This document shows positions 3,001-64,000 of a DNA stretch of 64,000 nucleotides, piece by piece. The notes below the pieces were generated by a model that ran no database searches, was not told where the DNA came from, and was given only the letters and a program-made list of their open reading frames with translations. The translations under genes were made by a program, and so were the position numbers. How positions within the stretch are numbered: the first letter of the stretch is position 1; each line of letters opens with the position of its first letter. Origin of the DNA: Amphiscolops sp. MND2022 (Eukaryota). The DNA is taken from the NCBI GenBank assembly GCA_964187785.1, contig OZ076415.1:54126001-54190000 (forward strand). Reading direction: 5' to 3'.

Positions 3001-3370
3001 GCAAGTCGTCGTAAAGCAACAACAAATTCATCAATGCTTTCACCTGATTTTTGAATACGACACCCAAATGAATAACGCTCGGAAACTACGTTGACTTTAT
3101 CAGCAAAATGATTTTCAAGGCATTGTAAAACTTCTTCATAAGTATCATTAGCTATTTGCGTATCATCTCGTAAAGAATAATAAACGGTCTGACCTTCAAG
3201 TCCAATTAAATGGAGCAAAATAGCTTTTTTCTGTTACTAGCCAACTCTGCGTAGTTTGTAGCCGTCATGTAATTATTGAAGAGGCGAATCCAGTCCTTCC
3301 ATGGAACTCTTGGTTTCCCGGGATCAGGTAAAAAAGGTTGGGGCGCAGGTAGGTTGAAAGTTTCAGACAT
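1..3370 (-). pseudogene. Gag-Pol polyprotein, frameshifted at about 3225, 1710 and 400
   Basis: Starts MSETFNLPAPQPFLPDPG at 3370. Zinc knuckles CFRCGSKLH and CKNCNKTGHFAKVC; protease VVDSGAK; RT KIDLSNAYHQ...FGL...FLDD; RNase H TCDASKIGIG, LKTDHK, NAVADALSRL; integrase core IDISGPY...VVDEYSRWPE...SNGLVERF at 1-290. Confidence 0.9.
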
Positions 3371-38100: not shown

Positions 38101-41073
38101 GCTCAGATAATCCGTTAATGGGATGTTTTTGCCGGCTGTATACTGCACATTCACATCGAAATGGCCTAGTCGGTCTAACCACCTAGTGAGTCTTGCGCTG
38201 TATTGTTTGTGCGCTCTATTGCGTTTCAATAGTGGTTGTAGTGCGTGCTTGGTGGTCGGTCAAGAGGTTTATCCGTTTGCCATATACGTAATATCGGAAG
38301 TACTGGAGGCCCCAGAGTACGCCTAGTAATTCTAGCTCATTTAAGGCGTACTTTCTCTCACAATCAGTGAGAAATCGACTTGCAAACGCGACCGGTCTAA
38401 ACGCCCCGTTTTCTTTTTGCCATAGGGTTGCCCCTAATCCGGTGTTACAGGCATCTGTTGTTATAAAATTATCCTTCTTCGGATCGAAATGTGCTAAACA
38501 CGGTGCTTCGGTTATTTCTTTCTTTAGCTGTTCGAAGTCGTCATTTATCTCTTTTGTCCATTCCCATTTTACGTCTTTCTTGAGTAGTTTCCGCATTCGA
38601 TCAGTCTTTTTGGATAAATTATTTACAAATTTTGACAGATGTTGTATTGAGCCAAGGACTGATTTCAAATCTTTCGTGTTCGTGGGAGCTTTTAACTTTG
38701 TTGGTTTTGTTAACTTTGTTGGTTTTGTTAACTTTGATGCAATCAGTTTTATCCTGAATTGGTTTTACTCCGTTCTGATTTATCAAGTATCCCAACCAGG
38801 TTAGTTCTTTTTTGAACAATGCTGTCTTTCTGTCGCTCGCTCGGTAGCCGGCTTCTTGTAATTTTGTTAACACTTCGCGCAATTCCCGTTCGTGTTCTTC
38901 TATTGTTCCGTTTGTGACGCAAATGATGTCATCTAACCATACCGGTGTTTTAAACTCTAAGACTTTATCTATGTGCTCTTGAAACACCGTTGGAATGTCC
39001 GCAAGTCCGTAAAAACCTTTCTTGAACCGGTAGTGTCCGGTGAATTCGCCACCGATGATGGAGAATACGCAGTGTCTCGATGCTTCAGCGGATAACTTAG
39101 CTTGTCCGTACGCATAGTCTAAATCGATCTTGGACATACAAATTTCGCCGTCGCTTTGTGTGATTTTCGCGGAAATTTGACTGATTAATTCCTCCATGTT
39201 GGGCATGGTCGCTTTCCGTTTTATACACGATTCGTTCAATTTTCTGGAGTCTAACGCAATTTTCACTGATTTATCTTTTTTAAATGTTATAACCGCCGGT
39301 GAAACGAAGCCACTTTCGGTTGTCTTGTCTGCTTTTTCTAAGTGCCCTTTTTCAATGAGTTTGTCTAGTTCATTTTTCACTATTCTTTGGAAATGAATTG
39401 GCACTGGTCTTCCCTTTTGTTGTATCGGTTTTGCGTCTTTTTTCAATTGAATTTCTATAGTTAGATCTTTTATCGTGTGATTTGTTTTGAAAAGTTTTTC
39501 GAAATCTTCAAAGATTCTCTCACCTTTACCGTTTGTGGATATGTTTCTGATGATGTTTGTTTCTCGTCTCCCCTGTAACCCAATTTCCAGTTTGTCGAGC
39601 CAGTCCAATCCCAATAGGGGTTGTGTCTTTTTCTTCTCCGTAATTAGTATGGGCAGTGTCACTTGTGTTTTCTCGGTCTTGACCTCAACCATCGCCTCGC
39701 CTTTAAATTTGATGGGATTTTTATTTACATCTATGAAACATTTTGTGGTTGGTTTAATCCCTTCTGGGTTAATAATCGGTGTAATTATCGTCACGGGTGA
39801 GCCAGTATCAATGACAAATTCTATTGGCTGCCCCTCCACCAATAGGATCGCTTTGTAGAAATCTACACGGTTTATTCCGTTCACGGATTGATTTTGATCG
39901 ATTTCTGGCCATGACTCCGTACTGCCGTCCGTTTCCTCTTCGTGTATCAAATTCACGGTCTTTGATCGGCAAACCTTGGCGAAGTGTCCGGATTTCTTGC
40001 AATTGTTACATATAGCTTTCCGTGCCGGGCAAATGTGTTCGGGTGTCCAGTTTGACTTTCCGCAGAAATGGCAGTTTTGTTCTGAATTCTTCTTCTTGCC
40101 GGCAAATGTATTTTTTCGTTTCGCTGCCGGTTTAGTGTACCCGACTTGTTCGTCTTCGGATATATTTTCTGAAGAGTTTTTTCGTTGTCTCTTGGAATGT
40201 GATGGCTTGTCCCCGTATTTACGGTTGTAGTTGTCTAGTTCGATCGTCTCCAATACCAGTTGCAGTTTCAGGGGACCTTTGATGAATTTGTCACGGGCTT
40301 TTTTGTCATTTATGGACGCTGCAAATTTGTAGGTGATTATGTCTTCGGGTGTAATGTTACCAAATTCGCACTTTCTCTCTATGTCTACTAGTTTCTTCCA
40401 ATACTCGTCCAGTGTTTCACCCTCTTCTTGTTTAATGTTGAAGAATTGGGCTCAACTGTGAAATATGTCTCTTGCGGGTAAGAAGGTCTTTTTGAACAAT
40501 TTCAGCAATTCTTGTAGACTAATGTCTTTGGGCTCTTTTCCCCATTGGCCCCTCATGATCTCATGTTTTGCTTTCGGGCCCAAAGCCCAGATGACATCGC
40601 CTTTGATGTGATATGTTGTGTGTGGACCGATGGAATCAGTTCCGTGTTCTAACAATTCCTCCAGTTTCTTTTGGTATGTTAGGTCTATGTATTCTGATAT
40701 TTGTTCCCACCACATCCTGGGATTTGCTTTCGATAGATCGGTCTCTCTATCCGATAGGATTGGGATTTTATACTTGTTTTTCTCAGTCCTCTCGACTGTC
40801 GTTTGATTGACCGCTGTTGGGTCGGATCCACTGGTGTTTTCCATTGTGACTTCTTCTGGTTCTTTCTTCTATGACTGCGCCATATTGTAGACTCGATAAA
40901 AGAATAAGGTTGGATGCTCAAGTTAAGATTAAGATGTAGCAGTATAACGTAGAGATCAACTGTATACAAACTAAAAGGTAGCATCAACTAAACAGTACAG
41001 ACTAGTGTCCTTTAAAGTTCATGACAAGTATTTGGCAACACTGTCTAGACTAATAGGAGCACTCTCCTCTACA
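35190..41073 (-). mobile_element. Complete Ty3/Gypsy LTR retrotransposon, TSD GAGTG
   Basis: 191-bp LTRs at 35190-35380 and 40883-41073 with 4 mismatches. GAGTG at 35185-35189 and 41074-41078. PBS TGGCGCAGTCA (40872-40882, tRNA-Ser-like); polypurine tract at 35381-35393. Confidence 0.97.
36433..40844 (-). pseudogene. Gag-Pol with premature stops (40452, 37213, ~37033) and frameshifts (~38740, ~38230)
   Basis: Zinc knuckles CHFCGK / CNNCKKSGHFAKVC; protease IDTGS; RT KIDLDYAYGQ...WLDD; RNH TTDACNTGLG; integrase HSGH...CPSC, LDFAGP, IRTDNG, LLERTIR. Confidence 0.92.
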
Positions 41074-41075
41074 GA

Positions 41076-42281
41076 GTGATGTCTTTTCAAAAGTATGTAC
41101 TGTATGAGAGAATTCAAGAAAAAACTTCAAGTTTTCAAGCTTCTCCATTAGTTTTTGAGTCACTTAGCACTAACGAAATCGCTGGGAAATCTTCTAGCAT
41201 GCCTGCACAACGTAAAATACGGCAAGTGGGCTCATTGTTGGATGAATTGAAGTCTAGAAGCAAACTTTTTTCCATCCAATACGGTTTTTTGGAGAAAACA
41301 ATATCAGGAAAAATCGAGGATAAGAAAATGGATTTCACCCCAACTGCTATTTCACTTTGGCTATCACCTTTTCTGAGTCGTCGCTCTTCTAAGAAACACT
41401 GGATTGTGGATAACAGTGGATTGCCCACTTTTGAACCTCGGTCGCTGAAACAGTGGATACGCCGTGGAGTGCCTTCTTGTGATCGAAAAACGTTATGGAG
41501 GTTTCTCATTCACAAACAGATCCTCAAAAATGACTGCTCCATTCATACCGAACACGACTATTATAGTTACACTAGGAGAACTGATGTTTTGGACGAAAAA
41601 ACCAAATATCAGATTGACATCGATGTGTGCCGTTGTTTAACAAACAATATTTGTTACCAGTCAGACACAAAAAAGCGCCAACTAGCGGACATTTTGAGCG
41701 TTTTCTCTCTCCTGAATCCCCGTATCAGCTACTGTCAATCTTTCAGCCGAGTAGCGGCGTTTGCGCTTCTCGTTCTCCCGGAGTTCGAAGCATTTTTGGC
41801 GTTCGAGCAAATAATTTGTCACATAATGCCTCAAGATTACTACATTGCTCCTATGGCTTCTGTACAGTCGGATATGTTTGCCCTTAAAAACTTGATAATA
41901 GACAAACTTCCTCAATTAGCGAAACATTTCGCAAAACTGGATATTGAGCCACAATTTTTTGCACTTTCTTGGTTCCACAGTTTGTTCGTAGCAATATTCC
42001 CTGTGGATATAGTTTTACTGATGTGGGACAATTTTTTCAACGAAGGTCCCAAAATTTTATTCAGAATGAGCCTGGCTGTTTTATGGTCGAAACAAAAGCA
42101 ATTACTCGAATTCAAAGAAGCAACAGATTTGTTGTGTTTCCTGTCAAAACTGGACACAGAAACTTTTGATGTTTCACAGATACGCCGATTGGCATTCAAA
42201 GACGTTAACCCTATCTCAGAAGAAACAATAAATTTATATCGCATTCAATACTTCCAGCAGATGGCTTCCAAAGCAGAATGA
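41076..42281 (+). CDS. TBC-domain Rab GTPase-activating protein, TBC1D2/TBC1D2B-like
   Basis: YGF, IRRGVP..DRKTLW, IDIDVCR (Arg finger), NPRISYCQ (Gln finger), MPQDYY, DKLPQL, WDNFFNEGPKILFR and DVNP closely follow the TBC1D2B pattern. Confidence 0.9.
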   Translation: MMSFQKYVLYERIQEKTSSFQASPLVFESLSTNEIAGKSSSMPAQRKIRQVGSLLDELKSRSKLFSIQYGFLEKTISGKIEDKKMDFTPTAISLWLSPFLSRRSSKKHWIVDNSGLPTFEPRSLKQWIRRGVPSCDRKTLWRFLIHKQILKNDCSIHTEHDYYSYTRRTDVLDEKTKYQIDIDVCRCLTNNICYQSDTKKRQLADILSVFSLLNPRISYCQSFSRVAAFALLVLPEFEAFLAFEQIICHIMPQDYYIAPMASVQSDMFALKNLIIDKLPQLAKHFAKLDIEPQFFALSWFHSLFVAIFPVDIVLLMWDNFFNEGPKILFRMSLAVLWSKQKQLLEFKEATDLLCFLSKLDTETFDVSQIRRLAFKDVNPISEETINLYRIQYFQQMASKAE

Positions 42282-45960: not shown

Positions 45961-46063
45961 TGATGTTTTCAAGTCGCTACCGGACAACTGTGATGCCATG
46001 AAACATGACCTCAAATATTTCTAAAGACTTGACATCCGATATCCAATTCAAGAAGTTGATGTT

Positions 46064-46325
46064 TTATTAGTTTGTAATCGACTAATCTATTTGGCGATGC
46101 TTCTATTCTTCAGATATTTCTTTAGTTTGTAATCTAATATATTTAGCGATGCTCCTTTTATTCACATATTTCATTAGTTTGTATTCTACTAATCTATTTA
46201 GTGATGCTTCTATTCATCAAGTATTTCATTAGTTTTTAATCTACTAATCTATTTGCAGATGCTCCTTTTATTCACATATTTCATTAATTTGTAATCTACT
46301 AATCTATTTAGTGATGCTTCTATAC
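46064..46325. repeat. Minisatellite, ~55-bp unit, ~5 copies, alternating variants
   Basis: attagtttgtaatctactaatctatttagtgatgc repeated with alternating gcttctattc / gctccttttattcac tails. Confidence 0.85.
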
Positions 46326-48856
46326 CCAAGTAGTCTAAACTAATGTAGTTTCCAGATAATCTAAACCATATACCCTGAGGACAATCTAATCTCAGTAAAA
46401 AGACATTTACAGTAATGACATATTTCCTGTAAGTATAAAATCGTAGTTAACTAAGACTTCACGACCGATTGGTTCTTTCTCACTATAGACCGAAGAAAAT
46501 AGAACGTGAGTCCACATCAGTAGTTTTAGACAAACATCTAAATGAAGATCGATCTCATCTTAGACAACGGTTCCTGCTCAAGACTGAATAACTTCTTATG
46601 GAATTTTCAACCTGAAAAGATCAACAACCCAACAAGTTTTGAGCAACATATTTGGTGCGACCACGAAAATTTTTTTTGTCTGTCTTTTTCTCTCTTTTCT
46701 ACTCTTCTTGTACACGTTTTCCCGATTCCTAAGTAGGTAGTCTATTGTTTGACAGACTGTCGATCTTCTTTTTTGCATCATCTACAGATTTAACTTCAAA
46801 AATGCAACCAATTTTCACAAAAAACTGATTCGTGTTGGTACTGCGTACCAACGTAATTCCTGTCAGTTGAAATTCTTCTCCTCTCCAACAACTACAAAGT
46901 GATTCGTGTTGGTAAAATTCTTCTCCGTTCCAACCACTACCAAAGTGATACATGTTGGTCTTCTCTGTTAACGTTCCAACTGCAGACGTGCGATACGTGT
47001 TGGTTTTTTCTCGAAGTGTTATCCAACGATTCCTGATAGTAAATTTGGTTCTAGCTGATCGGATTATCTCCTTTGAGTTGGTACTTCTTCACATGTTTGA
47101 ACCTCTAACATTAGAATATAACTTTGCACTATATCACTTTTTTTGACTCACTATACAACTACTTTCTTTCATAACAGAAACATTTTCTTTTAACAGTTCC
47201 ACGGGTACGCAACATACGTTTCAATACAACTATCTATAAAATACTATTCAATACAACAAACATTACGAAATATCCAGAACGAACAACAGAAAACATTCTA
47301 AATCATTGAATAACATGATATAATACACATTTTTCGATGCCTTCTGGTGATGATTTTGATACGTTTTGTTTTATTCCTTTGGTTTTCATTTGGTCTTCTA
47401 GCAATTCTTGCTCTTGTCTTTGACCACTCTATTCTCCCTCCATCCCAAAGTCTTAAAATTATGATCTCCTATGATTTTTAACACTTTTTTTCTACTTCTT
47501 GGACTTTTTAGTCTATACCATTCATCCCGTTTCTTTATAACATACCTTTACGTTTTTAGTAAATTTTTGACTTTTTCTTTATAAGCCCTTTTTGTTGAAC
47601 ACCTTTTCCCATATAATAAACACTTTAAAATCGAATAAAAACTTGTGTCCTGTTTTCATCAGCTATCCAAAACTTTTGTATAGTAAATATTTTGAACTCC
47701 CATGATACATTTCTGTGTAAAACAAAAATTTGTGTGAGACAATATGCTTCCTACTCCTTTTCGATGCTCTACTTCACAACCTCGTAATGTACCTTCAATT
47801 ATTCAAGATATCCAACCCTTTTGAAAAACGTTTTCTCCAATACAAAAACCACCCACTTCTTTTTGAAACTGAAGCTCATTCTAAAAATACTATCCCACTT
47901 CTTTGAGAACACTTAGACTCTTACCACATTTACGTTTGGTACAAAACATAGGAAACCACTCCTGCTCGAACACCTCTCCAAACCAGTTTTAAACCTGTTA
48001 CAGGAAGTGATACAGACATTTTATTTAGAAGAATCTATCCATAAAATATTATATTATCAAAACAAGATGTTTTCCTCATTTATATGGACAAATTAATAGA
48101 TCACAAGGAAAAGTTAGAAACACCTATGTATCGACCTTGCCTTTCAGAAAGTCTAAAACAAAAGCATGATTATTTTGAAGTTCAAAACATAGATTCTAAG
48201 ATCACTAGACAAAATAATCCCCATTTTCGTTTCAACAAAATAGTTTACAAATAACAATTCCATTCCATCTTTTTCCGGAATATCACACTTATTGAGGACA
48301 CAATACTACCTTTTAAGGTATTTTCACGATTTATCTTGAATTTCGTTGGATTCATTTATCAATCAAATACGTAAAACAAGACCAACCAGCATATAATAAT
48401 TTTCGTCGAACTCTCGATGAAACGGATCTATTACCATTTAATATAGATGACAAGTTTAAACACACCATTAACACAACACTTGATACAACAACAACATAAT
48501 GACAAACAATTTGAGAACCTATCAGTAGAACCAGATAAAACTCTCACCGATAATCTCACTCAAGATGAGTTCCCTCCTCAGAATATCCCAACTACCGATT
48601 CAAGTACAGTTCATACAGTTGGATCGAAGCCTTTAGTAGTTCCCATACTTGTTACAGAACAAAAAGGTCCACACCCAACTCAAGGCTCTTCTATTTTATC
48701 CACAACAAATACAGATATAAAACAATTATCATTACAACCACCGAAACCACCACCTAGAAATTTTGATCCTTCTCCACCACCTGAATCCGGTACATTTTCG
48801 AACATATACATTTGAACACGAACATATACTCCCGCTCACAATACTACTGTTTTAAA

Positions 48857-49309
48857 CATTACGTTACATATGCCGCGAATGTGGGATTTTTCATCAAGTG
48901 TAAAGTGTATTTTCTGTAAAACGAGATCGAACCGTTTTCTAGTCAAAAAGTGCATCGTGTTCATCGCGAATTGTGATGCAAAGTGTAATCAGAACTTGCG
49001 GATTGTGAACATTGAGCGTAGTTAGAGAGAAAAGTGGAAACCAGTAAAGAATCTTGGTATATACCGTGAGTAAGAATGACTCTAAACGATTCTTCCATTC
49101 GTGTGTGAAGTGGAAACCAGTCAAAGTCCGTAATTTTAGAGAGTATAAAGTAGTCATTTACTGCATTTTGATCAATACGCGTAACGCCAAATCACACAGT
49201 GTAACGAGCAAAACACGTAACGCGTATTTGAAATGATAACGCGTTTTTATTGGCTGTTAATCGAACTAGCAAGATCTTGCTAGTTCGTTGCGGCATATGC
49301 ATCGTAATG
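48857..49309. mobile_element. MITE of the CATTAC-TIR family, 2-bp TSD AA, inserted in the Gypsy gag region
   Basis: aa|cattacgttacatatgccgc ... gcggcatatgcatcgtaatg|aa; perfect 26-bp palindrome cgaactagcaagatcttgctagttcg. Confidence 0.85.
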
Positions 49310-52300
49310 AACGTACCACCTAGGCTCACAATTGATACTATAGATGCAGACAGATTACCAACCATTTCAAATTCTAGATCACTTTCTAGACCATCATATT
49401 TCCAATTCCGTCAAACCTTTTTCACTATGACTTAACGAGTACAAATGTTCAAAACACAACAGTCTTTGTATCTTTCACTACAAATCGTTCGAACGACCAC
49501 TACAACAAATCCATAGCAATTCTTTACTATTTTGCGTCAAAATATTATGATCAACTGTAACGTTCACACGTTACGATTTCCTTCAATAAGGACTAATCGT
49601 GTCATACTATTTCTATACCACAAGTTTCAGCTAAGACCCATAATTTACTCTCTAACACCTCACATACTAAGTATGGAACGACCCATCAACCTACATTACC
49701 ATTAAAAACTGTCTCAAATTTTACATTCATAAACTTTTCTGCTTCTATTACAGAACACAACAAACATTTCGATGTTCTCGATAAGAAATATAAACCTGAA
49801 GAATGTTTACAATACATTGAAGCCCGTGTTACATTTTCATTAGAACTCCAACCTACAACTCCACATGAACATAAATTTTGGCACGCTAGACGTAGGACTT
49901 TCATTCAATGTTCACACACTGGAACAGTTCTTAGTTGGTACATTAACCGCAAGGAAACGTATAAACAAGACCGGTCTGCTTCTGTGCAAGCTTTCAAAAA
50001 AACGCTTACTATGCTCCAGTCGAAGTTCTCACATTTCATGAAAGGTCTTCCCAGGAATCTTGAATATTTTGCAAACAAAAGACAAGCAAAACATTTTTCC
50101 TCTGTTTTAGAACCTCCTTTCATACTCTTGTTAAACTAGTAGATGCTGAAGATAGCTTTTGATAAAAGTCGCCCACATGATCGTTCTCTGGAAGTATATT
50201 CCATCACAAAGCAATTGCAATCACAGAAACTAGTTGCTCAACAATCTGAACACAACCATTAGATCCTATTAATAAACAAAAATTTTAAAAAAATGAACAT
50301 ATACATAAAAATCAATGCATTTAAACAATATTGCTCACGCTGTCAGAAAACAAATCTTTCCATTCCAGCATTCCAAACAGAAAGATGATGAAGACAAACG
50401 AGATGACTATACAAGATCCAAATAGCCTCAAAAAGCCTCTGTACATTACTTTCGTCCTCCTTCTCGTGATAGCAATAACTCTTATTTAACTAATAATAGA
50501 CATGCTGAATATTAAGATCGCAATCGCAGCAGGTATATCAAAAGAAAGTCTTCATTACAAAACAAATATAGCCCCCATTTCAGAGACAGATACAAATATG
50601 AAAGAAATACTACTCCTCCACAATATCACCGATCTAGATTTGACAATTATCCACAAAATTCACGCAAAAAATAGTTCAATTTACAGATCTTCCAAATGAT
50701 CACTTCTTAGAGGTGATTCCCGTACTTGATATAAATTACTTGAATTTTCAAGAGTCAAAACATTTCATAATTACACTTCTTTACATAGACCTCCATCAAG
50801 GCCAAGAGACCCTAAGCCATTTAATTCTTGATCGTAATCTGACACAAAAACAAAGTAAAGGACATTGAATCAGGGCCTTCGAACTCACCTATCAACCTTG
50901 AAGTTCATATGTATCACCCTACTGAAAAGGCTAATGCGCTGACACCCACAAGTTTGTTTTGTTCGTTAAATTTACATACTCCTGAAAGACATAAGAACAA
51001 TGATCATCCTTCAAGAATAGAAGTCTCATTCTTTTTAGATAGCAGTGCTTCCTTTTCGGTACACAACTATCCTACCTAACTCACAATTGCAAAACGTCTT
51101 AACATAACCTGTAATGACAAAATATCCCATATATCAAAAACACCAACTGTTGCTAACCAAACAGAGGTTCCTCTCTCACAATATTTGACTGTCGCCTTAA
51201 ACACTTTACTTGAACATAACGCTCGACAATTTATCATTCTTTTTTTCTGTTGCAGACACAAAGTATATCACCCTCTCTCCTGAGGAATTTATATAAAACT
51301 TTATTTTCCAAGACTTTACTTAACATTCAAATAATAATCACAAGATCAAGCAAATGTCACTAAATTTCCCTCTCTACTATCAAAAGACTACCCACGTTTC
51401 TCATACATCTATAGTATTAAGATCCTATTTAAGTCCAGAACACAAATTCATTTGAGCCCAAACTCCTAAATTATTGCTTATTCTCCAACTTCGCAACAAC
51501 AATTCGCAACCAAGTTTTGTTCAACTTTCAACGTTCCTGAAGTTTTCACTAGTAACAGACCTGACACTTGTTCAACTATAATACAAATTTCAACGAACCA
51601 TGTTGCAACACTTCCGACACATTGGTTATATTGAAAAACCTATTACAAATGAAAAACCTAAATACTATCAAGTTAACGATATAAATTTTTTAGTTCATAA
51701 TGTAGCTCACATCTACCACTCTGATCTAACTGAATCTCTTCTACCATCTAACTATGATATAACAATACCCGAGAGGTTTTTGGTTTCATCTTCTGCTTCT
51801 CATTCCTCCCTACATCAGGGTTATTTGACAACTCCAAAACTACTTAACATACCTTATTCACATATTTACAACGTTCAACTTACCTCTGAAACTTCCTAAC
51901 CACGTATTTTCTCTACTCTTCCCTATTCAAAAGTATTCAAAAGACAATTTACGCTTCAATACTGAATTCAACTTTCACTTTTCAGATCTTACAGATACCG
52001 AAAACGTTACTTCATGTAATTTGTTAAGGAAACACAAAAACTGTTGTGCTACACGCAAAAACGGTGTAATAAAAAATTGCTACTTCATTTCGAATACGAT
52101 TAAAACCAAATGCACAGCTCACTAGAAAACGTCCTTCTAAACACTATCCATTACAGACATAAACTCAACAACGTAATCAAAGAATTAGAGAAACGTAATA
52201 ATATTGAACAAATTGGTTCTTCTCCAGAAAACAAACCTAACTCTGGTACTACTTAACTAACTTCTCTTGCTATCATACCCAAAGTGATTCAAAAAATTGT

Positions 52301-55300
52301 GTTCTAGACACAAGACACTCAAGGTCTAAAACAGAACAATCTGACGAATCGTGGCCCATAGAACCACTTGCTTCTCAACTAGCCCATGCAAAAAAACACA
52401 AACGCGCTATAGAATTAATGTACGCTTACGCTCATACTCCCCTTGATGAAAAAACTATAGAGTTGAGCTTAAAAGCTTCTCCTCAGGTGATGAACTATTT
52501 GCTTTAATTAAAGGCGTTTATGGAGTCAAAGGCTGACCAAACAATTGTAGAAAACAAATGTCGTCTTTCTTCAAAACTTTCATAAAAAAAGGTTCTGCTC
52601 TAGTTAATATTATTGATATTCTACTACTTTCAATTTTTAAAAACCGTATGTTTCAACTTCATGTCATACGTACCACGTATCAAACACAATCTAAAATTGG
52701 GTCCAGAGAAATCATTTCTATGTTACTTAAAGTTAAAAACCCCCAACTTGAGATTGGTTACAACACAAATCAACCTGTAGCCTCTAAAGTTGCTGCCATT
52801 CATAAACTTCTTTCTACTACTGGTAAAGTTGCCCTTTTGAGTTTCATAGTTACACTAATCTTTTATACAAAATTCATTGAAAAACGTCACGTTAACATTA
52901 ACCATTTTATGACCTTTTACTCGAAAATACTCCTTGGACTTGGACTTCACAAAATGAAGCCCCATTTCGAAAACCCAAAAAATTGCACTCACTTCAGATA
53001 CAGAACTTACAATACCAAATCAAAAACAACCTTTCTTTATTACATTTGACGATTATTAATTGGGTTAGGCGCTGTCTTCTTTCAATTGAAAGACGAGAAC
53101 AAAATGAAAGTCATTACGTCCATTTTTCGTATACTCAATTCTCCAGAACAGAAATTTCCTACACTAGATTGTAATTCTACACAGTGAATTACTCGGTATA
53201 GCACATGCTCTCCAACAAGTATGAGTTCCTCGTTATAGGATATCCACACCCAATTTTTATATTTAAACCTCTTTCACAAAAAAAGATCATAAACGTCTTT
53301 TACAATGCTTCACAAAAAAGACAACCTTAGTCCACCCTTCTATAGAGCCCAAAAGCAACACAGTCATTCAAACTCTTGCAAATACCTTGTTTGTGCCTGA
53401 CATGCTCAGCGGATATTTTACTTCATTAGAACTCCAACCTAATCAACTCAAACACAAATAACTCCAATCTCAAATAGACTGTGCCATCTTACAAGATAAT
53501 ACTTTATAACCCGTCTCTTACTCAATCAAACACGAAGGAAAAACACATGATTCTCATTTTTCATCAACATGATTCTCATTTTCCTTTGCTGATTATGAAT
53601 CAGATCAATTTTCGATTCGCATTAGTGATAAAAGTAACGACATAATTGTCAAAACTCTAAACTTCTTTTTTTTTCAAATCTATTACATTTTCGAACCAAA
53701 GTCAAACCACTTTTAGGAAAACATAGGAAAGTAAGCCTCTACATCAACAACTATTACTCTTTAAGGACATTGATGTTACAAGTGATGGCCAAGATCAAAT
53801 ACACAGTCGAACTCCTAAACCAATTACAATTCAAAATACCAATCATATAATTGACAAACCTCAAGAATCCAATCTAACCATTTCAGAAAGTTTCTGTACC
53901 ATTACAAAATTACAAACTATTCCCCATCTACTTCTGTAGTTGATACAGCAGGACCTATTAAACTATTCACACATATTTCTCAAGTCATACCCTTTTATGA
54001 CCCTTTTTTTAAAAACAAAACCTAGTTTCAGGTTTTTCCTACCCCTTGATTTCTTTTTAGGATTACAGACCTATAAACACCAATAAACTCAAGACCTTTT
54101 TCTCAAAACAGTTTATCACTGGCTACGCAATAATTCACCACCCCAATTACCTACCTCTCAATAAACGGTTCCCCGTTTTTACAAGCGTATTACAAAACAT
54201 TTCTCAACTTTTTTAGACGATGCTAATAATCTTATCAGTTTATAAACAAATAAAATCTCTCCTGAAACAAACCCTAATACCAATTCAACACTCATTCAGG
54301 GCAATAATAGAATTAATTTACTTTTTCGCTTTTTCAAAACAGCCTTGAACAAAATTCATGTACACAATACTCATGTTTTACAATTTTTTTTATTTCCTTT
54401 TCTTGAAAATTAGTTATCTATTTACATATATGATTGTCTTGAATTCCAACGAAATAAACATTTCAATATGAAAGTAAATACAGTTCCTATTCAATCCCTT
54501 CTCCGAACATGTTCCCTCTTTTAACTATCGTATATCCGTGGAAAACAAAGCCCCTATCAATCCACACTCTCAAAACAAAACTTACATCCATCTCTTTGCA
54601 GATGCTCTGAGTCATTTTGTTGTTACCGTCCCTATCAAATCTAATAATGCAAAAACAGCTGTCAAAAGTCTTTTACATCACTGGATTATCAAATTTGGTC
54701 CTTCAATATACGTTGTCACTAATCGCGGATCAGAATACGAAAATCTTGACATGGCACAACTTTGCACTCTCATGGGTATTACACATTCTTCTAGAACACC
54801 TTACTACCCTTGGACTAATGGACTCGTTGAAGTTCAAAAATAAAAGCCGCGGAACTTTTGTCGTAACTTTCTACGAAACATCCCCAAGGCTTGGGCATAT
54901 CAAGTTCATATGTATGACTATTCACATAAATCACAACGGCTTGCTGCACTGAAGGTTTTACCTCAAGAAGTAGTTTCTCCACCTGATCCCGAATACCTCT
55001 AACTTTCTGTTTAAACGTTGATAGTAATAAAAAATACATAGCTGAGTTCATTCCAGTTTTTACAGAACACTATGCAAACCTCTTCCACATTGGTTTCTTG
55101 CTGTTGGAACCGCAATGTTACAAACTTTTTCTGTAGTACATTATTACACCAGGAATATTTTTTAATTCCCAAGCATACATTACAAAAACATATCACGAAG
55201 GTAAAACCTCTCCCACTCAGTACATTTTTTTAAAACTTAACTTCATTCATGTACATGTTTCTGACAGTCCTAAACTTCTCCGAATTTATCCCTATGAAAT

Positions 55301-55799
55301 ATTCGATCGAATTTCAGATGTAACGTATGAAATTTTCATATTGACAGAAACCATTCAATACCTTAATACCCATAAGAACCACTTTGATATCCTCGTCTCC
55401 GTAATTTTTTTCAGATCCAAATAGTTCTGACATCCCAAAACCCAATAAGTACGCTATCAGTGATTCTCCTCCTTTTCTTCTGTTACTGCCTTATCTGATG
55501 ACGAGTCATCCCAAATATCTGAATCTCAAATCCCCTCAACAACAAGTAATCCAACTAAACCAAACACGTCTATAATTGACAATTTAACTTAATAAACTTT
55601 TATAAAGAACAGTGACACTAATCCTCCTTCCAATCGTCACGCTGCAAAAAACTCTTCTAAATTTCCCATTCCTAATCGGCCAAATGATAGACATTCTAAA
55701 ACCCGTTAACAATTGAGACGAGCAACCACGAAAAGGTTTTTAACGTTTCATTATCACCAAGTTTCCGACCAATGGTCTTTTTTTCCTCAATTGCAAAGA

Positions 55800-58400
55800 A
55801 GTAAGAGTCAAGATAAAGTGAATAAAAAGTACGAATGAAGCTAAAGTGAATAAAAAACCTATAAAAACGTTGAAAACCTAGATTATTTTTCGGATACCTT
55901 CCCATCTGCTCGGCGTTTATCCACGTCAACCTCTCCAACTGTCATAACAACCCAACAACGCAACTTAGCTACACCCTCCTCAAAGAAACCAAACTCTCAC
56001 ATCTTTGACTGTGACAATTCCTGTGAAAAAGTCACCTATTTTTAGTACCTTGTTTCTACAAAACCTTCCACTTCCGACCGACCACCCATAAGTGACCTAC
56101 CAATCACTCCACCCTTTCAATCGCAAGCTTCACCCATCCATACTACTCTTGTCCACATACCACATACCGATTCAGTTGCCAAATTCGTAATCTAAAAACC
56201 ACTAAAACTTGGTACTGCTATAAAAACTTCTGGAATACGTTCCCAACTAGATATTGTACGAATACTTGAATCAACATACCCTCCACTAACTTCCTAATTG
56301 GTATTATCTTCGATATCTGAATTATGCACCTCTTCAAAAACGACAAAAAAACACTCTACAGCCTATCAAATATATTGGACGATTCAACACAGGAACAAAA
56401 ACCATCACAAGACTCTAACAGTACACTTTTAAATCCTCAAACTCGTTGTAATCTTCGCCATTTACGTAATCGACGACAATTTACTGATACGTCTGCTCTA
56501 AATTTCTCTGCACTTTTATGTAACTCAGCTGTGCGCCTTCCACGACAACACGCTCAACCACTTTACTCTGATACACATTCTTCTGAAACAGTTTCACTAT
56601 CTAATTTTACGTCTAGAATAGACACTGCAACCTTAGTTTCCTCAGACCTACAAACTGCCTACCTATCTGGTAAGCTGTTTTTTTTCAGAAGTTCTCGCAC
56701 CTATAGACGTGGTGACAGAACAATTTGAAATCATAACACACTACCTCTTCCTGTAATTTTCGCCCCATTGTAAGGTAATAACCCTACTCTACATCTTAAT
56801 GGTACAGACAAGAACATATTGAACAACTTCAATTACATTCGTGCCTTTACACTTTTAAAACATCATCACTTTCGAAAAAAGTTTGCACATTTTGAAACCC
56901 CCTTTCACGTTTTACATATTTGATACAATATATACTGGTAATTTCACCAACTTGCTGATGAAGAATAGATTTATGACCCTTCAAAAAATCCTCTACATAA
57001 CTGTCCAGCCAATCCAGAATTTGAAGGAAATATACTCAGTCAGAGACTTTCCGTCTCTGAAATCGAAATGAATTATGATGATACAGAAAATGATATGATA
57101 ACAGGCGGACTAAGTTTACTATGCTAGTTTGCAGACGGATTTTGCAATTCCGCAATCAAAACACCTTTCACTCTTGTATTGTTTCGTAAAGATTTTCATC
57201 TAATCTTTTCATCAGTACGATAACTAAAACTGAAGAACGCTATTAGATAGTAAATGATTCTTTTATACAATCTTCACTTCCTAACAAAACCGGATCCACT
57301 TCAGGAATCAAAAGCACTTTCTACCCATATATCCATGCACCCCACATACTCACAAAACCCACAAAATCCTAGTCTTCCATGTTTCGTAGTTCTTCTTCAC
57401 TGCTCAACCATGTTGAGGCAACCTGAACTACCAGTTTCTACGCAATACTCAAATATTTGAGAGTCACATACCACGAAGGTTTCAATTTGCATACAGGACA
57501 ACCAAGTCCTCAGTCTATTGTCAATGAATACATCTCAGCAAAAACAGTATTAGACACTTCAAAAAAGAACAATTTTTTTCCTGCTTTAAACGTATCAAAC
57601 AACAATGCAACCACTGATTATGATGCACAATTGAAAACAAAAACAGATTATACATTTAATGTTCAGGAACCAAATACTCTTCAAACTACACGCGAATTAT
57701 CACGAAACCAACCGCTTACAATACTTTCTATATCTGTCCAAAACCCTAAAGTTGCTTTTTTTCTCACCGGTAATCGAAGTAACTTCCTCTATGTTGAAGG
57801 GTCTACGGCTTGTTTATATGGCTGTCCCCATTACCTTTCACCAACTTATAAAGCAGATAGTTGCTTTGGCAGAATATCTATACATTACAAAGTCACTCTC
57901 ATGTATGTAGATCCTATTACCAGACGAACTCATGATTATGCTATTCCTATACCACGTGACAATAACCCTATACATATCATAGAACTTGATCCTGATTCTG
58001 ATGACCAAGACTGTCTTATTCTCCGCCCAGAACCTATAAAACGAGAACCTCCTATGTTTACCCCTTCCTATATGAAAACCACCTAATACATTCACAGCTC
58101 AAGATGCTGGTATAAACTTTAAGGTAAAACTTTGGAATTGAATCCTTTAATCAAAACAGTCAGATAATACATTTTAATTTTTTGGAAAAGCTCCTAAGCT
58201 CTTAGTCATTTTTTTCTACTACTACTCCGGAACATTCTGAGGCAGATACATTACAAGACACAACTTTCATGAGCGTGAAAAGCTTAATAAAAATCCTCAA
58301 ACGCTCCATAAGGGAATTTTCACTGGCCCCCAATGTAATATTTTTTGTATTAATATTACCTATTTGAATGTTTTAAAAATTCGGGAAGCTTAAGATATTT
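55800..58400 (+). pseudogene. env-like glycoprotein remnant (class III fusion protein-like)
   Basis: LC*FADGFC...TPFTLV at ~57110-57190 and EGSTACLYGC...SCFGRISIHYK..LMYVDPITR in ORF 57457-58086; hydrophobic remnant near 58350. Confidence 0.55.
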
Positions 58401-58636
58401 TAATAATTGAAAAAAACAGAGGTTTTTGTATCTACCTTATCATTGAACCTGATACAAATTATAGAGATTTCTAATAAATAACTCCATTCTCAGGATTCCT
58501 AATACAAGTATTAAGTATTAGTTATACTACTTCCGCAGTTAACTTATATATAAATAGTATCTTATACACAAAAAGGATTTATTGTATACAAATAGCATTT
58601 CTTAAACCAACCGCTAATATTCCTTATAGAAACGCA

Positions 58637-61087
58637 TGATTTTGTAGTTTTGTTGAAATTGCGTTTGCAGTGGCTAGCAGCAGTTCGTCGAGTCTCAGTT
58701 TTTTTGATAAAGTATTTCTAATACACACTTAGAATACTTCAATTCACAAAAATATATACTTTCACCTACACAATTGTTTAAAAAACTCGATGCCGTCTTT
58801 TGATTATCGTGCTCTTCTTTCTTTACGAACTTTAAACTTTCTGTCAGAAGTAGCTTGAAAACTTCCAATACATTAAACATCGATTTTGCAATTTTGTTGA
58901 AATTGCGTTTGCAGTGGCTAGCAGCAGTTCGTCGAGTCTCAGTTTTTTTGATAAAGTATTTCTAATACACACTTAGAATACTTCAATTCACAAAAATATA
59001 TACTTTCACCTACATAATTGTTTAAAAAACTCGATGCCGTCTTTTGATTATCGTGCTCTTCTTTCTTTACGAATTTTAAACTTTCTGTCAGAAGTAGCTT
59101 GAAAACTTCCAATACATTAAACATCGATTTTGCAATTTTGTTGAAATTGCGTTTGCAGTGCCTAGCAGCAGTTCGTCAAGTCTCAGTTTTTTTTAATAAA
59201 GTATTTCTAATACACACTTAGAATACTTCAACTCACAAAAATTTATACTTTAACCTATATAATTATTTAAAAAACTCGATGCCGTCTTTTGACTATCGTA
59301 CTCTTCTTTCTTTACGAACATTAAACTTGCAGTCAGAAGTAGCTTAAAAACTTCCAAGACATTGAACAATGATTTTGTAATTTTGTTGAAATTGCGTTTG
59401 CAGTGGCTAGCAGCAGTTCGTCGAGTCTCAGTTTTTTTGATAAAGTATTTCTAATACACACTTAGAATACTTCAATTCACAAAAATTTATACTTTCACCT
59501 ACATAATTGTTTAAAAAACTCGATGCCGTCTTTTGATTATCGTGCTCTTCTTTCTTTACGAACTTTAAACTTTCCGTCAGAAGTAGCTTGAAAACTTCCA
59601 ATACATTAAACATCGATTTTGCAATTTTGTTGAAATTGCGTTTGCAGTGCCTAGCAGCAGTTCGTCAAGTCTCAGTTTTTTTAATAAAGTAGTTCTAATA
59701 CACACTTAGAATACTTCAACTCACAAAAGTTTATACTTTAACCTATATAATTGTTTAAAAAACTCGATGCCGTCTTTTGACTATTGTACTCTTTTTTCTT
59801 TACGAACATTAAACTTGCAGTCAGAAGTAGCTTAAAAACTTCCAAGACATTGAACAATGATTTTGCAATTTTGTTGAAATTGCGTTTGCAGTGGCTAGCA
59901 GCAGTTCGTCAAGTCTCAGTTTTTTTAAAAAGTATTTTTATTACACACTTAGAATACTTCAATTTGCAAAAAATTATACGTTAACCTATAAAAATGTTTA
60001 AAAAACTCGCAGCCGTCTTTTGACTATCGTGCTCTTCTTTCTTTACGAACAATAAACTTTCCGTCAGAAGTAGCCTAAAAACTTCCAAGACATTGAACAA
60101 TGATTTTGCAATTTTGTTGAAATTGCGTTTGCAGTGTCTAGCAGCAGTTCGTCGAGTCTCAGTTTTTTTTAAAAAGTATTTTTTCACACACTTAGAATAC
60201 TTCAATTCGCAAAAAATTATACTCTAACCTATAAAATTGTTTAAAAAACTCGAAGCCGTCTTTTGACTATCGTGCTCTTCTTTCTTTACGAACATTAAAC
60301 TTTCCATCAGAATTAACCTAAAAACTTCCAAGACATTGAACAAACCAATTCCTCAAATTTCTAGTTGGTAATCAATAACCAAGAAACAATCACAAGATTA
60401 CAGCATGAAAGCAATCACAAGATTACAGCATGTTTAAAAAACTCGATGCCGTCTTTTGACTATCGTACTCTTTTTTCTTTACGAACATTAAACTTGCAGT
60501 CAGAAGTAGCTTAAAAACTTCCAAGACATTGAACAATGATTTTGCAATTTTGTTGAAATTGCGTTTGCAGTGGCTAGCAGCAGTTCGTCAAGTCTCAGTT
60601 TTTTTTAAAAAGTATTTTTATTACACACTTAGAATACTTCAATTTGCAAAAAATTATACGTTAACCTATAAAAATGTTTAAAAAACTCGCAGCCGTCTTT
60701 TGACTATCGTGCTCTTCTTTCTTTACGAACAATAAACTTTCCGTCAGAAGTAGCCTAAAAACTTCCAAGACAGTGAACAATGATTTTGCAATTTTGTTGA
60801 AATTGCGTTTGCAGTGTCTAGCAGCAGTTCGTCGAGTCTCAGTTTTTTTTAAAAAGTATTTTTTTACACACTTAGAATACTTCAATCCGCAAAAAATTAT
60901 ACTCTAACCTATAAAATTGTTTAAAAAACTCGAAGCCGTCTTTTGACTATCGTGCTCTTCTTTCTTTACGAACATTAAACTTTCCATCAGAAGTAGCCTA
61001 AAAACTTCCAAGACATTGAACAAACCAATTCCTCAAATTTCTAGTTGGTAATCAATAACCAAGAAACAATCACAAGATTACAGCATG
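58637..61087. repeat. 244-bp tandem satellite, ~9.5 units, with a twice-occurring ~65-90 bp spacer
   Basis: Units start at about 58637, 58881, 59125, 59369, 59613, 59857 and 60101; block 59752-60430 is repeated at 60431-61087. Confidence 0.95.
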
Positions 61088-61121
61088 AAACAGAAGCAAG
61101 TCATTCAAAATGATTCAGTTG

Positions 61122-62502
61122 TTAGGCTGCCAAGGAAGACTTTGTGTCTTTTGCGATTAGTTCCCGATAATTTGCATAGTCCTCGTAGTTTCCTCGGTGT
61201 CCTTGAACTTGAATTTTGAGGGTTTCGAAAGCGAGACTTGTTTTTATTTTGAAACTCACCCCCAAGATGACATAGTTGAAAAATTTCTCTGCATCCGGCC
61301 TGGCTTCGAGAACATTCCATCTTTCGCCAAGAAACTCATCAAGCATTTTGTTTCCACGTGAACCCCGGTCCTCGTTGATGGTGAACTTCTGTCAATGGAA
61401 GAAAACGAAAAAAAATACAATTGTAAAACAAAGATTTTCAAGGCTCTGGAATGTGTAATTTTGAGATAAAACTTGTTTCTCATTTTGAAACCCCTCGGAG
61501 TTAAAATGTTGAATAACAAAATTGTTTGAACGTTTCAATGTCCTGGGAAGTTTAAAACATACGTTCAAGTGTTTCCAAAACATTGTTGCTAACGATGCTA
61601 ATACCGATGTTGATGGGAAGCATATGCTCACCGAGTCTCTAGATGCGTCACGGCCCAAAACTTGCTTGATGTAGAACGGCACAGGACTGTATATAATTTC
61701 GTTGTGGCTGATTGTGTCGTAAGAGAGCAAAAGTTCCTGTTTGATGGCTGAAAGCACAATGAAAACTTCATCAATTGGGTGCATGTTAGGTTTTCTCTCT
61801 GTGGGTTCTGGGGATTTCATATAGTTCATTTCATGTTGCTGCTTAAATGATTGATTGGGGTCTTCTGCCAGTCTAACTTCTGTAGCAGGGAGTCCAATGT
61901 ATCTTTTACTACCGTGTAAGGTTGCTTCTGCCATCGCTGTCGCCTCTTTGCAATAAAAAAAGCCTTCGCACAACCCCTGCCTGTGACACGTCTATTAAAA
62001 CACGTGATCCTTTTGCTAGAATTCCGTTCGTAGTAGGAACAAGAGTCAGTCTGACGGTTGCTTCAGATCCACACAATGTCCAAAAAGTTTCACGATTGTT
62101 GATCCTTGACGTTTTTTCTTTTTATTCTGCTTTTACTTCAGTTTTTACATTTTTGTCAACTGGGATGAGTATCTTTTCCTCTTCTGCCATTACTTCTTTT
62201 TGCCAGTCCGAATTTTTCAACTGGTTGTATGAAATATAAAACTTCCCCTCACTGGAGCAAATCAGCAAGGTTTTCCTAAACCTATCATTGATTAGCACAG
62301 TCCCAGATTTCAAAACTGATGCTTCTTGGATCATTTGTTTCATCTCTCTAGGCTCCATAATATCACCAACAGATGGGGCAGTTGATCCAACGTAATGTAC
62401 TACATCGCCTTTCTCGAACTTTTTTTGTTGTAATCCAGTTTGTAGTCGATATAGTAGCGTCTGGGAAGTAGAACTTCTTTGAGAGCTTTCCTGACTGGCC
62501 AT
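61122..62502 (-). pseudogene. Unknown ~400-aa spliced gene with one stop (62122) and one homopolymer frameshift (~61955)
   Basis: ORFs 62122-62502, 61392-61973 and 61122-61346 join into one reading. Phase-0 intron candidate AAC|GTATGT ... ttttcttccattgacag|AAG. No family recognised. Confidence 0.5.
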
Positions 62503-62928
62503 AACTCAAGATCAACTTGGGGGTCAAAAAAGAGCACACGAACAGGGTTTTTGTTTTTTCCCCAGCGAATAAAAGTGACACAAACATGATTGGTGCCCTC
62601 AAAGCCTTCGATTTTAGATTCCTCCTAAATCTGAGTGTCAGGATCCAAAGCTTGAATGACTGGTTTAGTCTGGAAAAACAAATTGGCAAAAAGCATTACT
62701 GATTGATTCACAATTCGAACGTCGGACCTCTGTGTCTGAAACCTATTACTCTGCCGAATTCACCAAAACTCTTTTACGCAACATCTAGGGCAGTTAACTT
62801 TTGCATATTTGTTTATGGAAATTAGTGACATTTGGAACATAACAAATCATACTATAATTTTGATCTATTTTTCTATAGGTGTATTTTTGTTCATGGTTTG
62901 CTTGTTATAGCTGAGACAGAACTGCTGA

Positions 62929-63846
62929 GATGAGAATTTTGTTCTCAAAAGAATCGTCAGGCTGAAAACGCCTTCAACTTACAAGCCTGATGAACTCTTT
63001 CCGTCAGTGCAACATGTCTCCAATCTGTTGTGCAGTTCAATTGGAAGAGCTGTCAATTTCGAAGATTTGACTTCCCTTGTCACTAAACGGTTGCAAACGC
63101 TAAGGACCGAACGCTTGTACACACAGGTTGAAGCCTTTGCCGATGAGTTTCGTGTGAAAGCAAGTGCAGAAACGGACTATGCCAATTTCTTTGACAATGC
63201 ATTCCGACAAGGGTGGAACACGTGCAAAGTTGGGTCATGGCAAGACGGGAAAATCAAATCCAAGCTTCATAAAGTTTTATTTGACTACCGGGAAAGGAAA
63301 AGCGCCCTGAAACTTCGAGGTGCACCCTTCAATCCGAACGTGGAGTACAAGAGCAGTGTCTCAAACAATGAGGGTTGGCAATTCGACTTTTTACACCGTG
63401 AGGAGACACAGACCTGGGACGGGATCACCTGTGTCACATAACCTGACATGGGTCGTGGCGTAATGACACTGAAGCCATTTAAAAAGGGCGATGTCATTTG
63501 CGACTACCACGGTTGTCTCGTTGACGAAAAGGATGCAGCATCGTACGCTGCAAGAACAGGCCGTGATATGTCCTACTTCATAGAAGTTACAACAGACATT
63601 AGGCGTCTTGTCGATGCATCCAATGAGGACTGTCCTCACCATCTCCGAAATTTGTGCCTTGGAAGACTATGCAATCACTCAAGGCCCAGGAACAAGCAAT
63701 GCACAGCCCGCTTGGGGGAAGTGGTTTGCATAAAACTCCCTCAAAAGCCTAGAAAAGTGGCACTGGTTGCACTCAGAGACCTTCCCCCTTTCACCCAGGT
63801 TCTGTTCGACTATGGTGATCCTGCAGCATGGAAAATGTTCATCTGA
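62929..63846 (+). CDS. SET-domain lysine methyltransferase, SETD8/PR-Set7-like; in-frame TAA at 63439-63441
   Basis: GRGV..KPFKKGDVICDYHG, VDAS, LGRLCNHS, LVALRDL and QVLFDYGD match SETD8 GRGV..KQFSRGDFVVEYHG, LGRLINHS and ELLYDYGD. Confidence 0.82.
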
Positions 63847-64000
63847 AAGAACGGAAAAACACAACTGACGGATGAAAAACAATGAACTTTTGTTAAATAT
63901 TGCTTATTGTTGAAATCTGTTGTCTTTGCTCACTTGTTGAAAAATCTTTTGTCTTTGTTCTTTGTACTTTTCAGTTGTCTAGGATTGTTCAATTGAATAG

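What the first reader, a model, noticed from the sequence alone, without database searches (positions are those of the whole stretch)
55800..58400. Gypsy-type element carrying a class III (chuvirus-G/gB-like) envelope remnant
Downstream of integrase lies ~2.6 kb of decayed same-strand coding sequence. G..L.C*FADGFC....T parallels the chuvirus-like glycoprotein pattern G..C.Y.DG.C....T.W. EGSTACLYGC....P.....SCF.RI.I.Y....YVDPITR parallels GE...I.KC.PV......CY..LPV......F..P.T. These patterns are recalled, not computed. Such envelopes are established in BEL/Pao elements (mosquito Anakin, nematode Tas), while insect Gypsy errantiviruses use baculovirus-F-type env. A Gypsy with this env class would indicate an independent envelope capture and a potentially infectious invertebrate retrovirus lineage.
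Basis: partly seen in the sequence, partly recalled or inferred. Interest (0 to 1): 0.7.

Follow-up and report, generated by a model that had tools for sequence, protein, structure and literature searches.

The report
Giant enveloped retrotransposon with accessory genes
This is a dead copy of an 18-kb virus-like jumping gene whose young relatives carry a herpes/chuvirus-type membrane-fusion gene, a pairing already published, plus three conserved extra genes, one of which likely starts at CUG instead of AUG.

Summary
The envelope remnant is real, but it spans only 56684-58247; 55869-56680 belongs to a separate accessory gene (ORF2). The window holds an old, broken copy (LTRs 26% diverged) of a high-copy Ty3/Gypsy clade; its 3' part lies just beyond the window, behind a 6.5-kb DNA-transposon insertion. 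Natural intact relatives (four subfamilies, 17.7-18.8 kb, LTRs 98-100% identical) read gag-pol, ORF2, env, ORF4, ORF5. Their env hits PF24664 (E 1.6e-23), and its model matches chuvirus G (E 2e-26) and herpes gB (E 1e-12), with no F-type hit. Not found in my searches: the layout. ORF2 and ORF4 are under strong purifying selection (dN/dS 0.07-0.12). ORF2 has no methionine in 5 of 5 representatives and begins at an A-n-n-CUG-G motif in 22 of 23 copies, suggesting CUG initiation with leaky scanning to env (inferred; no RNA data). Host lineage not determined. This scan's earlier notes did not hold this family.

The parts
45989..46648 (+). 5' LTR (TG...CA), lengthened by a 52-55-bp tandem repeat; 4-bp target-site duplication shared with the 3' LTR at L120:4907-5397, beyond the window
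   Evidence: the two LTRs differ at 26% of 307 gap-free columns
46653..46665 (+). Primer-binding site, same as in subfamily A; resembles the 3' end of tRNA-Arg(UCG) as listed in the eLife supplement, with an offset (host tRNA not checked)
47744..55447 (+). Decayed gag-pol (long N-terminal extension, gag, PR, RT, RNase H, integrase), many stops and frameshifts
   Evidence: tblastn of a natural 2734-aa gag-pol, residues 4-2615; rve E 3.3e-7
55869..56680 (+). 5' two-thirds of accessory ORF2 (residues 2-266 of 418); this copy does not keep the family's start motif
   Evidence: 58% identity to subfamily A over 111 codons
56680..56684 (+). Deletion junction fusing ORF2 to env; the end of ORF2 and the env N-terminus (signal region) are missing
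56684..58247 (+). Class III (chuvirus-G/gB-like) env remnant, about residues 130-666 of 902; 19 indels (13 frame-changing) and 11 stops over 529 codons against one natural copy
   Evidence: class
58247..64000 (.). Unrelated 6.5-kb insertion with 23-bp terminal inverted repeats (ends at L120:755), containing the 244-bp satellite (58636-61142) and a SET-domain frame (63442-63846); it splits env

Best explanation
The window holds an old, broken copy of an 18-kb Ty3/Gypsy LTR element whose intact relatives encode a class III (chuvirus-G/herpes-gB-like) envelope plus three extra genes, and which likely spreads between cells like an endogenous retrovirus with accessory proteins. Shown: layout, Gypsy-type pol, envelope family, recent copying, purifying selection on env, ORF2, ORF4 and ORF5. 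Predicted: the env folds as a class III fusogen with an N-terminal hydrophobic stretch and one C-terminal membrane helix. Inferred: a subgenomic RNA beginning in the pol-ORF2 spacer is scanned so that some ribosomes start ORF2 at a CUG in strong context and the rest leak through the AUG-poor ORF2 to the env AUG (about 55% likely); ORF2 may tether to nucleosomes through a conserved Y-N-L-R motif (about 30%); env-bearing particles carry the element from somatic cells to the germ line (about 60%, by analogy with Drosophila errantiviruses).
For: Env: PF24664 E 1.6e-23 and 7.4e-24 in 2 of 2 copies scanned; model pLDDT 74.9, pTM 0.47; Foldseek top hits HSV gB E 1.1e-12, chuvirus/xinmovirus G E 2.4e-26; VIA ranks 1-5 all gB, Z 8.8 at rmsd 16.1 over 423, domain IV Z 6.2 at rmsd 3.6 over 156. 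Pol: RT_RNaseH, RT_RNaseH_2, Integrase_H2C2, Retrotrans_gag, no BEL/Pao family; best solved relative Ty3 RT E 1.6e-36; RT tree separates it from two BEL rows at 100/100. Linkage: pol upstream of env in 16 of 16 loci examined, LTR pairs in 14 of 16, 98-100% identical, span 17.7-18.8 kb. Selection, B1 vs B4: dN/dS pol 0.07, ORF2 0.115, env 0.065, ORF4 0.073, ORF5 0.29. CUG: A-n-n-CTG-G at the ORF2 start in 22 of 23 copies (A 6/6, A2 8/8, B 5/5, C 3/4), while CTG is 0.6-3.6% of Leu codons and 0 of 104 three-way conserved Leu columns in pol, env and ORF4 are all-CTG; an in-frame stop lies 6-8 codons upstream in A and A2; no Met in 5 of 5 ORF2 representatives against 3.7-6.1 expected; sense AUGs 0-3 per 1.2-1.4 kb in 13 of 13 copies against 7-10 expected.
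Against: No RNA or protein data. Loci were taken from the top of hit lists, so they are biased to intact copies. MAFFT did not put the three CTG codons of A, B and C in one column (0 of 11 all-Leu columns in ORF2): their equivalence rests on motif and position in a low-complexity region. One C copy lacks the CTG and one has a late Met. Given the protein sequence, out-of-frame AUG depletion is modest (observed/expected 3/6.4, 3/5.8, 1/1.2, 0/3.0, 2/3.5; P 0.03, 0.07, 0.69, 0.008, 0.20), and the low-complexity gag extension is also Met-poor (0, 3, 1 in 350 aa). Up to 3 AUGs remain in ORF2, opening frames of 1-16 codons. No conserved splice donor was found. Global TM-scores to gB are low (0.24) and the hydropathy peaks are weak (1.6-1.8; none above 1.5 at the C-terminus of subfamily B). 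Y-x-L-R is only four residues.
Confidence: 0.75

Rival explanations
1. Same element, but ORF2 is the second exon of a spliced mRNA that gets its AUG from a short upstream exon (as CERV of C. elegans Cer1), and env has its own spliced mRNA as in Drosophila gypsy.
For: Pyrimidine-rich AG sites lie before and inside the 5' part of ORF2 in every subfamily; CERV is made from a spliced mRNA (PMC10309623, abstract); the sense strand is G-poor and low-complexity regions are Met-poor anyway.
Against: Does not explain a rare CTG with A at -3 and G at +4 kept in four subfamilies with dS 0.8-2.7; no acceptor inside ORF2 is shared by A, B and C; no conserved donor found.
Confidence: 0.3
2. The env and extra genes are kept for intracellular or cell-to-cell steps (or host restriction), not for free infectious particles.
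For: No particle or expression data; no R-x-K/R-R furin site in A, A2 or B, although the eLife paper says this site is not always kept in gB-type env.
Against: Env is as constrained as pol (dN/dS 0.065 vs 0.07), keeps its cysteine set across subfamilies and stays inside recently copied elements.
Confidence: 0.3
3. The env was captured recently and independently from a chuvirus by this Gypsy lineage.
For: Best structural hits are chu- and xinmovirus glycoproteins; the 18-kb clade's env forms its own long branch apart from other env families of the genome (SH-aLRT 100, quick tree).
Against: Identity to viral G is only 11-16%; 2196 representatives match at E<=0.001, the best full-length distant ones at 26-35%; the 18-kb clade and the other env-bearing families each group together in both RT and env trees, as long co-descent predicts ('other env' RT group weak, 49/73); PMC13524379 argues for ancient acquisition.
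Confidence: 0.1

Closest known systems
'Ancient errantiviruses' with HSV/gB-type ENV (Chary and Hayashi, eLife 2026, PMC13524379; seen: abstract, sections 5 part 1, 6, 13, 14, passages, supplementary file 1 part 1 of 34 plus a search)
   Same: Ty3/Gypsy pol, gB/chuvirus-like class III env downstream of pol, multicopy intact elements, tRNA-type PBS.
   Different: Here 17.7-18.8 kb with a 1.3-1.6-kb gene between pol and env and two genes after env. Their prefilter allowed up to 1000 nt between POL and ENV and regions up to 10 kb, so this layout could have been missed; the main text has 0 hits for 'accessory' and the supplement 0 for this PBS 12-mer.
Anakin, mosquito BEL/Pao with chuvirus glycoprotein (PMC7642597; abstract only)
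   Same: Same envelope family inside LTRs.
   Different: BEL/Pao pol; here Gypsy pol.
Burro giant Gypsy elements of planarians and foamy-like fish ERVs (review PMC6431247; passages)
   Same: Oversized LTR elements with env homology and accessory ORFs (up to 17 kb in fish foamy-like ERVs); MATH/TRAF cargo in Burro.
   Different: Burro env is in frame between gag and pol and matched gypsy Env; here a separate class III env after pol.
Rice tungro bacilliform virus ORF I-III and MLV glyco-Gag (review PMC3542737; passages)
   Same: Non-AUG start in strong context and an AUG-free stretch of about 0.9 kb that lets ribosomes leak to a downstream ORF; CUG initiation in a retrovirus.
   Different: Plant pararetrovirus genomic RNA, or a Gag extension; here inferred for a pol-env accessory gene of an animal Gypsy element.
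Cer1/CERV of C. elegans (PMC10309623; abstract only)
   Same: Gypsy-type element with an accessory regulatory protein.
   Different: CERV comes from a spliced mRNA; no similarity to ORF2 or ORF4 was tested.

Membership tests
Ty3/Gypsy (Metaviridae) | Order gag-RT-RNase H-integrase with Gypsy-type domains | tested here: met
   Retrotrans_gag, RVT_1, RT_RNaseH(_2), Integrase_H2C2, rve, SH3_Tf2-1 in this order in 3 of 3 full gag-pol frames scanned; the protease has no Pfam hit, only a D-S-G motif seen in the sequence
Ty3/Gypsy (Metaviridae) | LTRs with TG...CA ends, PBS, short target-site duplication | tested here: met
   LTR pairs in 14 of 16 loci; 4-bp duplication read in 5 of 5 subfamily A copies and in the window copy
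Ty3/Gypsy (Metaviridae) | RT groups with curated Gypsy references | tested here: inconclusive
   Ty3 RT is the best solved match and the tree excludes BEL, but only in-genome rows were available; 4 of 6 BEL loci were dropped for lack of an RT motif in the stretch held
BEL/Pao (Belpaoviridae) | Peptidase_A17 and related BEL/Pao domains; BEL-type RT | tested here: not met
   No such family at E<=1 in the gag-pol; separate from 2 BEL rows at 100/100
Class III fusogen (gB / chuvirus G) | Profile match to PF24664 | tested here: met
   Above cut-off in intact copies of A, B, C; not reached by the decayed window pieces
Class III fusogen (gB / chuvirus G) | gB-like fold with long central helix and beta-rich domains | tested here: met
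   Predicted model of a natural copy
Class III fusogen (gB / chuvirus G) | Signal peptide and C-terminal transmembrane helix | tested here: inconclusive
   Hydropathy only: peaks at 29-47 and 716-734 in A, weak; predicted C-terminal helix
Class III fusogen (gB / chuvirus G) | Trimer and membrane-fusion activity | not testable with these tools
   Three ectodomains exceed the complex tool's size limit; no assay
F-type env (baculovirus F / Drosophila gypsy env) | Baculo F or Gypsy env profile match, furin site plus fusion peptide | tested here: not met
   No such Pfam family at E<=1; no R-x-K/R-R site
Errantivirus as used in PMC13524379 | Intact multicopy gag, pol, env in a Gypsy element | tested here: met
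   For the family: 48 of 50 best A2 env matches carry no stop; the window copy itself is broken
Errantivirus as used in PMC13524379 | Placement in clades A1-A11 and cysteine-bridge type | not tested

The most novel reading that the evidence does not exclude
A lineage of complex invertebrate retroviruses: 18-kb Gypsy elements with a gB-type envelope and three accessory genes, making ORF2 from a conserved CUG and env by leaky scanning on one bicistronic RNA, with ORF2 acting as a foamy-virus-like nucleosome-tethering factor; sister families in the same genome swap in TRAF/MATH cargo.
Probability: 0.35. Interest if true: 0.72.

Novelty: new variant of a known kind. Interest (0 to 1): 0.5.

Why it matters
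Gypsy with a gB-type envelope is known, but published surveys treat these as simple gag-pol-env elements. A recently active, high-copy clade that keeps three extra proteins under selection would show that invertebrate endogenous retroviruses reached the complexity of foamy or lentiviruses on their own, and that screens with short pol-env gap limits miss them. A conserved CUG-started gene upstream of env is directly testable by ribosome profiling and would add a translation strategy not found in my searches for animal LTR elements.

Tried and rejected
Sequence searches of env against solved structures found nothing (0 hits at E<=10). ORF4: 319 homologues at E<=0.001, none of the 120 listed with a Pfam domain or name; its model is poor (pLDDT 43.5) and gave no Foldseek match at E<=0.001, only weak Tudor/KOW/Sm-like rows, so no function is assigned. 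ORF2 and ORF5 have no Pfam hit. ORF5 is not conserved between subfamilies (16-22%). The protein atlas held neither query. No RNA holder was listed; contigs of four runs laid on a family copy showed no joint that I could read as a splice and none lay on the window stretch. P0058, a possible fifth subfamily, was not found in this genome at E<=1e-200. A host TBC-domain gene returned no named relatives, so the host lineage is unknown and I cannot say whether it was in the eLife survey's taxon list. The primer tRNA was not checked in the host. No stable hairpin follows the CUG (-2.6 to -7.5 kcal/mol over 70 nt). Frameshift or read-through from pol into ORF2 was rejected for A and A2: in-frame stops separate them. 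AUG scarcity in the gag extension seen in A does not hold in A2 or C. The env tree is the quick version; the careful search did not finish. Supplementary files 2-6 of the eLife paper and most of file 1 were not read and may list related elements.

Full report
What is at the coordinates. The three plus-strand frames of 55600-58650 are full of stops and give no Pfam hit. The one long open piece, 57427-58083, found 7187 candidates in the window's own genome; all 150 scored matched at E<=1.1e-89, many inside open frames of about 920 aa. Natural proteins from such copies, mapped back, divide the region: gag-pol 47744-55447, a separate gene (ORF2) 55869-56680, then env from 56684 (residue 130) with DNA homology to 58247. 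The env remnant shows 19 indels and 11 stops over 529 codons against one natural copy. At 58247 an unrelated repeat begins; it has 23-bp inverted ends and closes at L120:755. Behind it env residues 673-899, ORF4, ORF5 and a 3' LTR follow. Both LTRs are flanked by the same 4 bases and differ at 26% of 307 columns. So this is one old, complete insertion, deleted at the ORF2-env junction and split by a DNA transposon.

The family. I examined 16 loci of four subfamilies, chosen from the top of hit lists (A 6, A2 1, B 5, C 4). All 16 have pol upstream of env with ORF2 between them; 14 show an LTR pair, 98-100% identical, spanning 17.7-18.8 kb. The two without a pair are a copy with a duplicated ORF4 and a copy whose 5' end I did not fetch. 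The order is gag-pol, ORF2 (about 400-450 codons), env (860-920), ORF4 (430-500), ORF5 (150-310). Env identity between A, B and C is 52-60%, ORF2 39-47%, ORF4 36-40%. Between B1 and B4 (dS about 0.8) dN/dS is 0.07 for pol, 0.115 for ORF2, 0.065 for env, 0.073 for ORF4 and 0.29 for ORF5. The window copy is nearest to A (integrase 78%, env C-part 75%). Copy numbers are lower bounds: 150, 50, 63 and 50 scored matches.

Envelope class. Intact env hits PF24664 Monjiviricetes_fusion (E 1.6e-23; B and C) and no F-type family. A model of one natural ectodomain (45-row alignment; pLDDT 74.9) matches herpes gB in every PDB row shown (best E 1.1e-12), chuvirus and xinmovirus glycoproteins in BFVD (best E 2.4e-26), and gB at ranks 1-5 in the independent aligner, followed by rhabdovirus G. 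Global TM-scores are low (0.24-0.44), as expected if domain arrangement in a monomer model is uncertain (inference). Hydropathy gives weak peaks at both ends and there is no furin consensus.

Carrier. Pol has the Ty3/Gypsy domain set and no BEL/Pao family; Ty3 RT is the best solved relative. An 11-row RT tree separates it from two BEL rows at 100/100; four of six BEL loci were dropped because the stretch held no RT motif, and no curated references were available.

Is it known? Yes for the headline. Chary and Hayashi (PMC13524379) state that F-type and gB-type env are equally abundant in metazoan Gypsy elements (abstract), describe the gB-type folds, and found 114 Gypsy elements with chuvirus-like BEL/Pao baits. 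Their prefilter allowed at most 1000 nt between POL and ENV and 10 kb per region, with later manual extension for some groups; here the gap is 1.3-1.6 kb and gag-pol to env is about 12 kb. Extra ORFs between pol and env or after env are known in general (PMC6431247). Searches showed no paper on this layout or on a CUG-started gene before env in an LTR retrotransposon; the library lacks most subscription papers.

How ORF2 and env are likely made. ORF2 has no Met in 5 of 5 representatives (3.7-6.1 expected each). Its similarity between A and A2 begins at a Leu-Asp pair 6-8 codons after an in-frame stop, and that Leu is CTG with A at -3 and G at +4 in 22 of 23 copies, though the preceding residue varies. 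CTG is 0.6-3.6% of Leu codons here; in 104 Leu columns shared by A, B and C in pol, env and ORF4 only 4 of 312 codons are CTG and no column is all-CTG. That context is the one required for non-AUG initiation (PMC3542737). Sense AUGs in ORF2 number 0-3 in 13 of 13 copies against 7-10 expected and 13-22 per kb in the other genes; spacer AUGs lie upstream of a candidate acceptor in the 5 copies that show both. This fits one subgenomic RNA giving ORF2 from CUG and env by leaky scanning, as in rice tungro bacilliform virus. Against it: the alignment program did not put the CTGs of A, B and C in one column; AUG depletion is modest once the protein sequence is fixed (P 0.008-0.69) although every control region was at or above expectation; low-complexity gag is Met-poor too; no donor is conserved; and there is no RNA evidence. 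I put this step at 55%.

What the extra proteins do is open. ORF2 carries Y-N-L-R in 5 of 5 representatives, the spacing of the foamy Gag nucleosome anchor; I take chromatin tethering as the leading guess (30%). ORF4 has no family and a poor model with weak Tudor/KOW-like rows.

Verdict. The 18-kb, five-gene layout and the probable CUG start make it a new variant of a known kind. Interest 0.5.

Noticed in passing
L108:2636-3406, L110:2518-3564, L114:2798-3820: Three other env-bearing Gypsy families of this genome carry, after env, a gene with a TRAF/MATH domain (E 1e-21, 8e-23, 4e-10; two with coiled-coil-like N-parts), a possible mimic of host signalling adaptors. MATH cargo is known in Burro.
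   Followed up: partly
L105-L114, L118, L119: At least five further PF24664 env families (frames of 712-821 aa) occur; all 7 loci fetched have a pol upstream, Gypsy-type in the 3 scanned; one is 12.2 kb with a 524-aa gene after env, the others have 3-4-kb pol-env spacers.
   Followed up: partly
L021:3752-5005 and pol C-termini (L023, L115, L055): Y-N/K-L-R occurs once in ORF2 of 5 of 5 representatives and near the Pol C-terminus in 3 of 5, matching the Y537-L539-R540 spacing of the foamy virus Gag acidic-patch anchor (PMC9040877, passages).
   Followed up: partly
window 58247-64000 and L120:1-755: 6.5-kb element with 23-bp terminal inverted repeats holding a 244-bp satellite and a SET-domain frame (E 6e-12); its left end has at least 40 relatives; another SET frame lies in L057:190-2229.
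   Followed up: partly
L023:503-2560: Gag-pol of the 18-kb clade has a 520-690-aa extension before the gag domain, with a conserved N-terminal ~250 aa of unknown family.
   Followed up: no
window 41049-42281: Intronless Rab-GAP TBC-domain frame of 410 aa (E 9e-43).
   Followed up: partly
window 328-3233 and 35192-41073 (minus strand): Two other Gypsy-like elements; the second has a 189-bp direct repeat pair 5.7 kb apart.
   Followed up: no
L023:8705-8810; window 55815-55860: AATAAA hexamers lie just after the pol stop in A, B, C and the window copy, a possible internal polyadenylation site or just A-richness.
   Followed up: no
L033:1949-4000: One subfamily A copy carries a tandem duplication of ORF4.
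   Followed up: no
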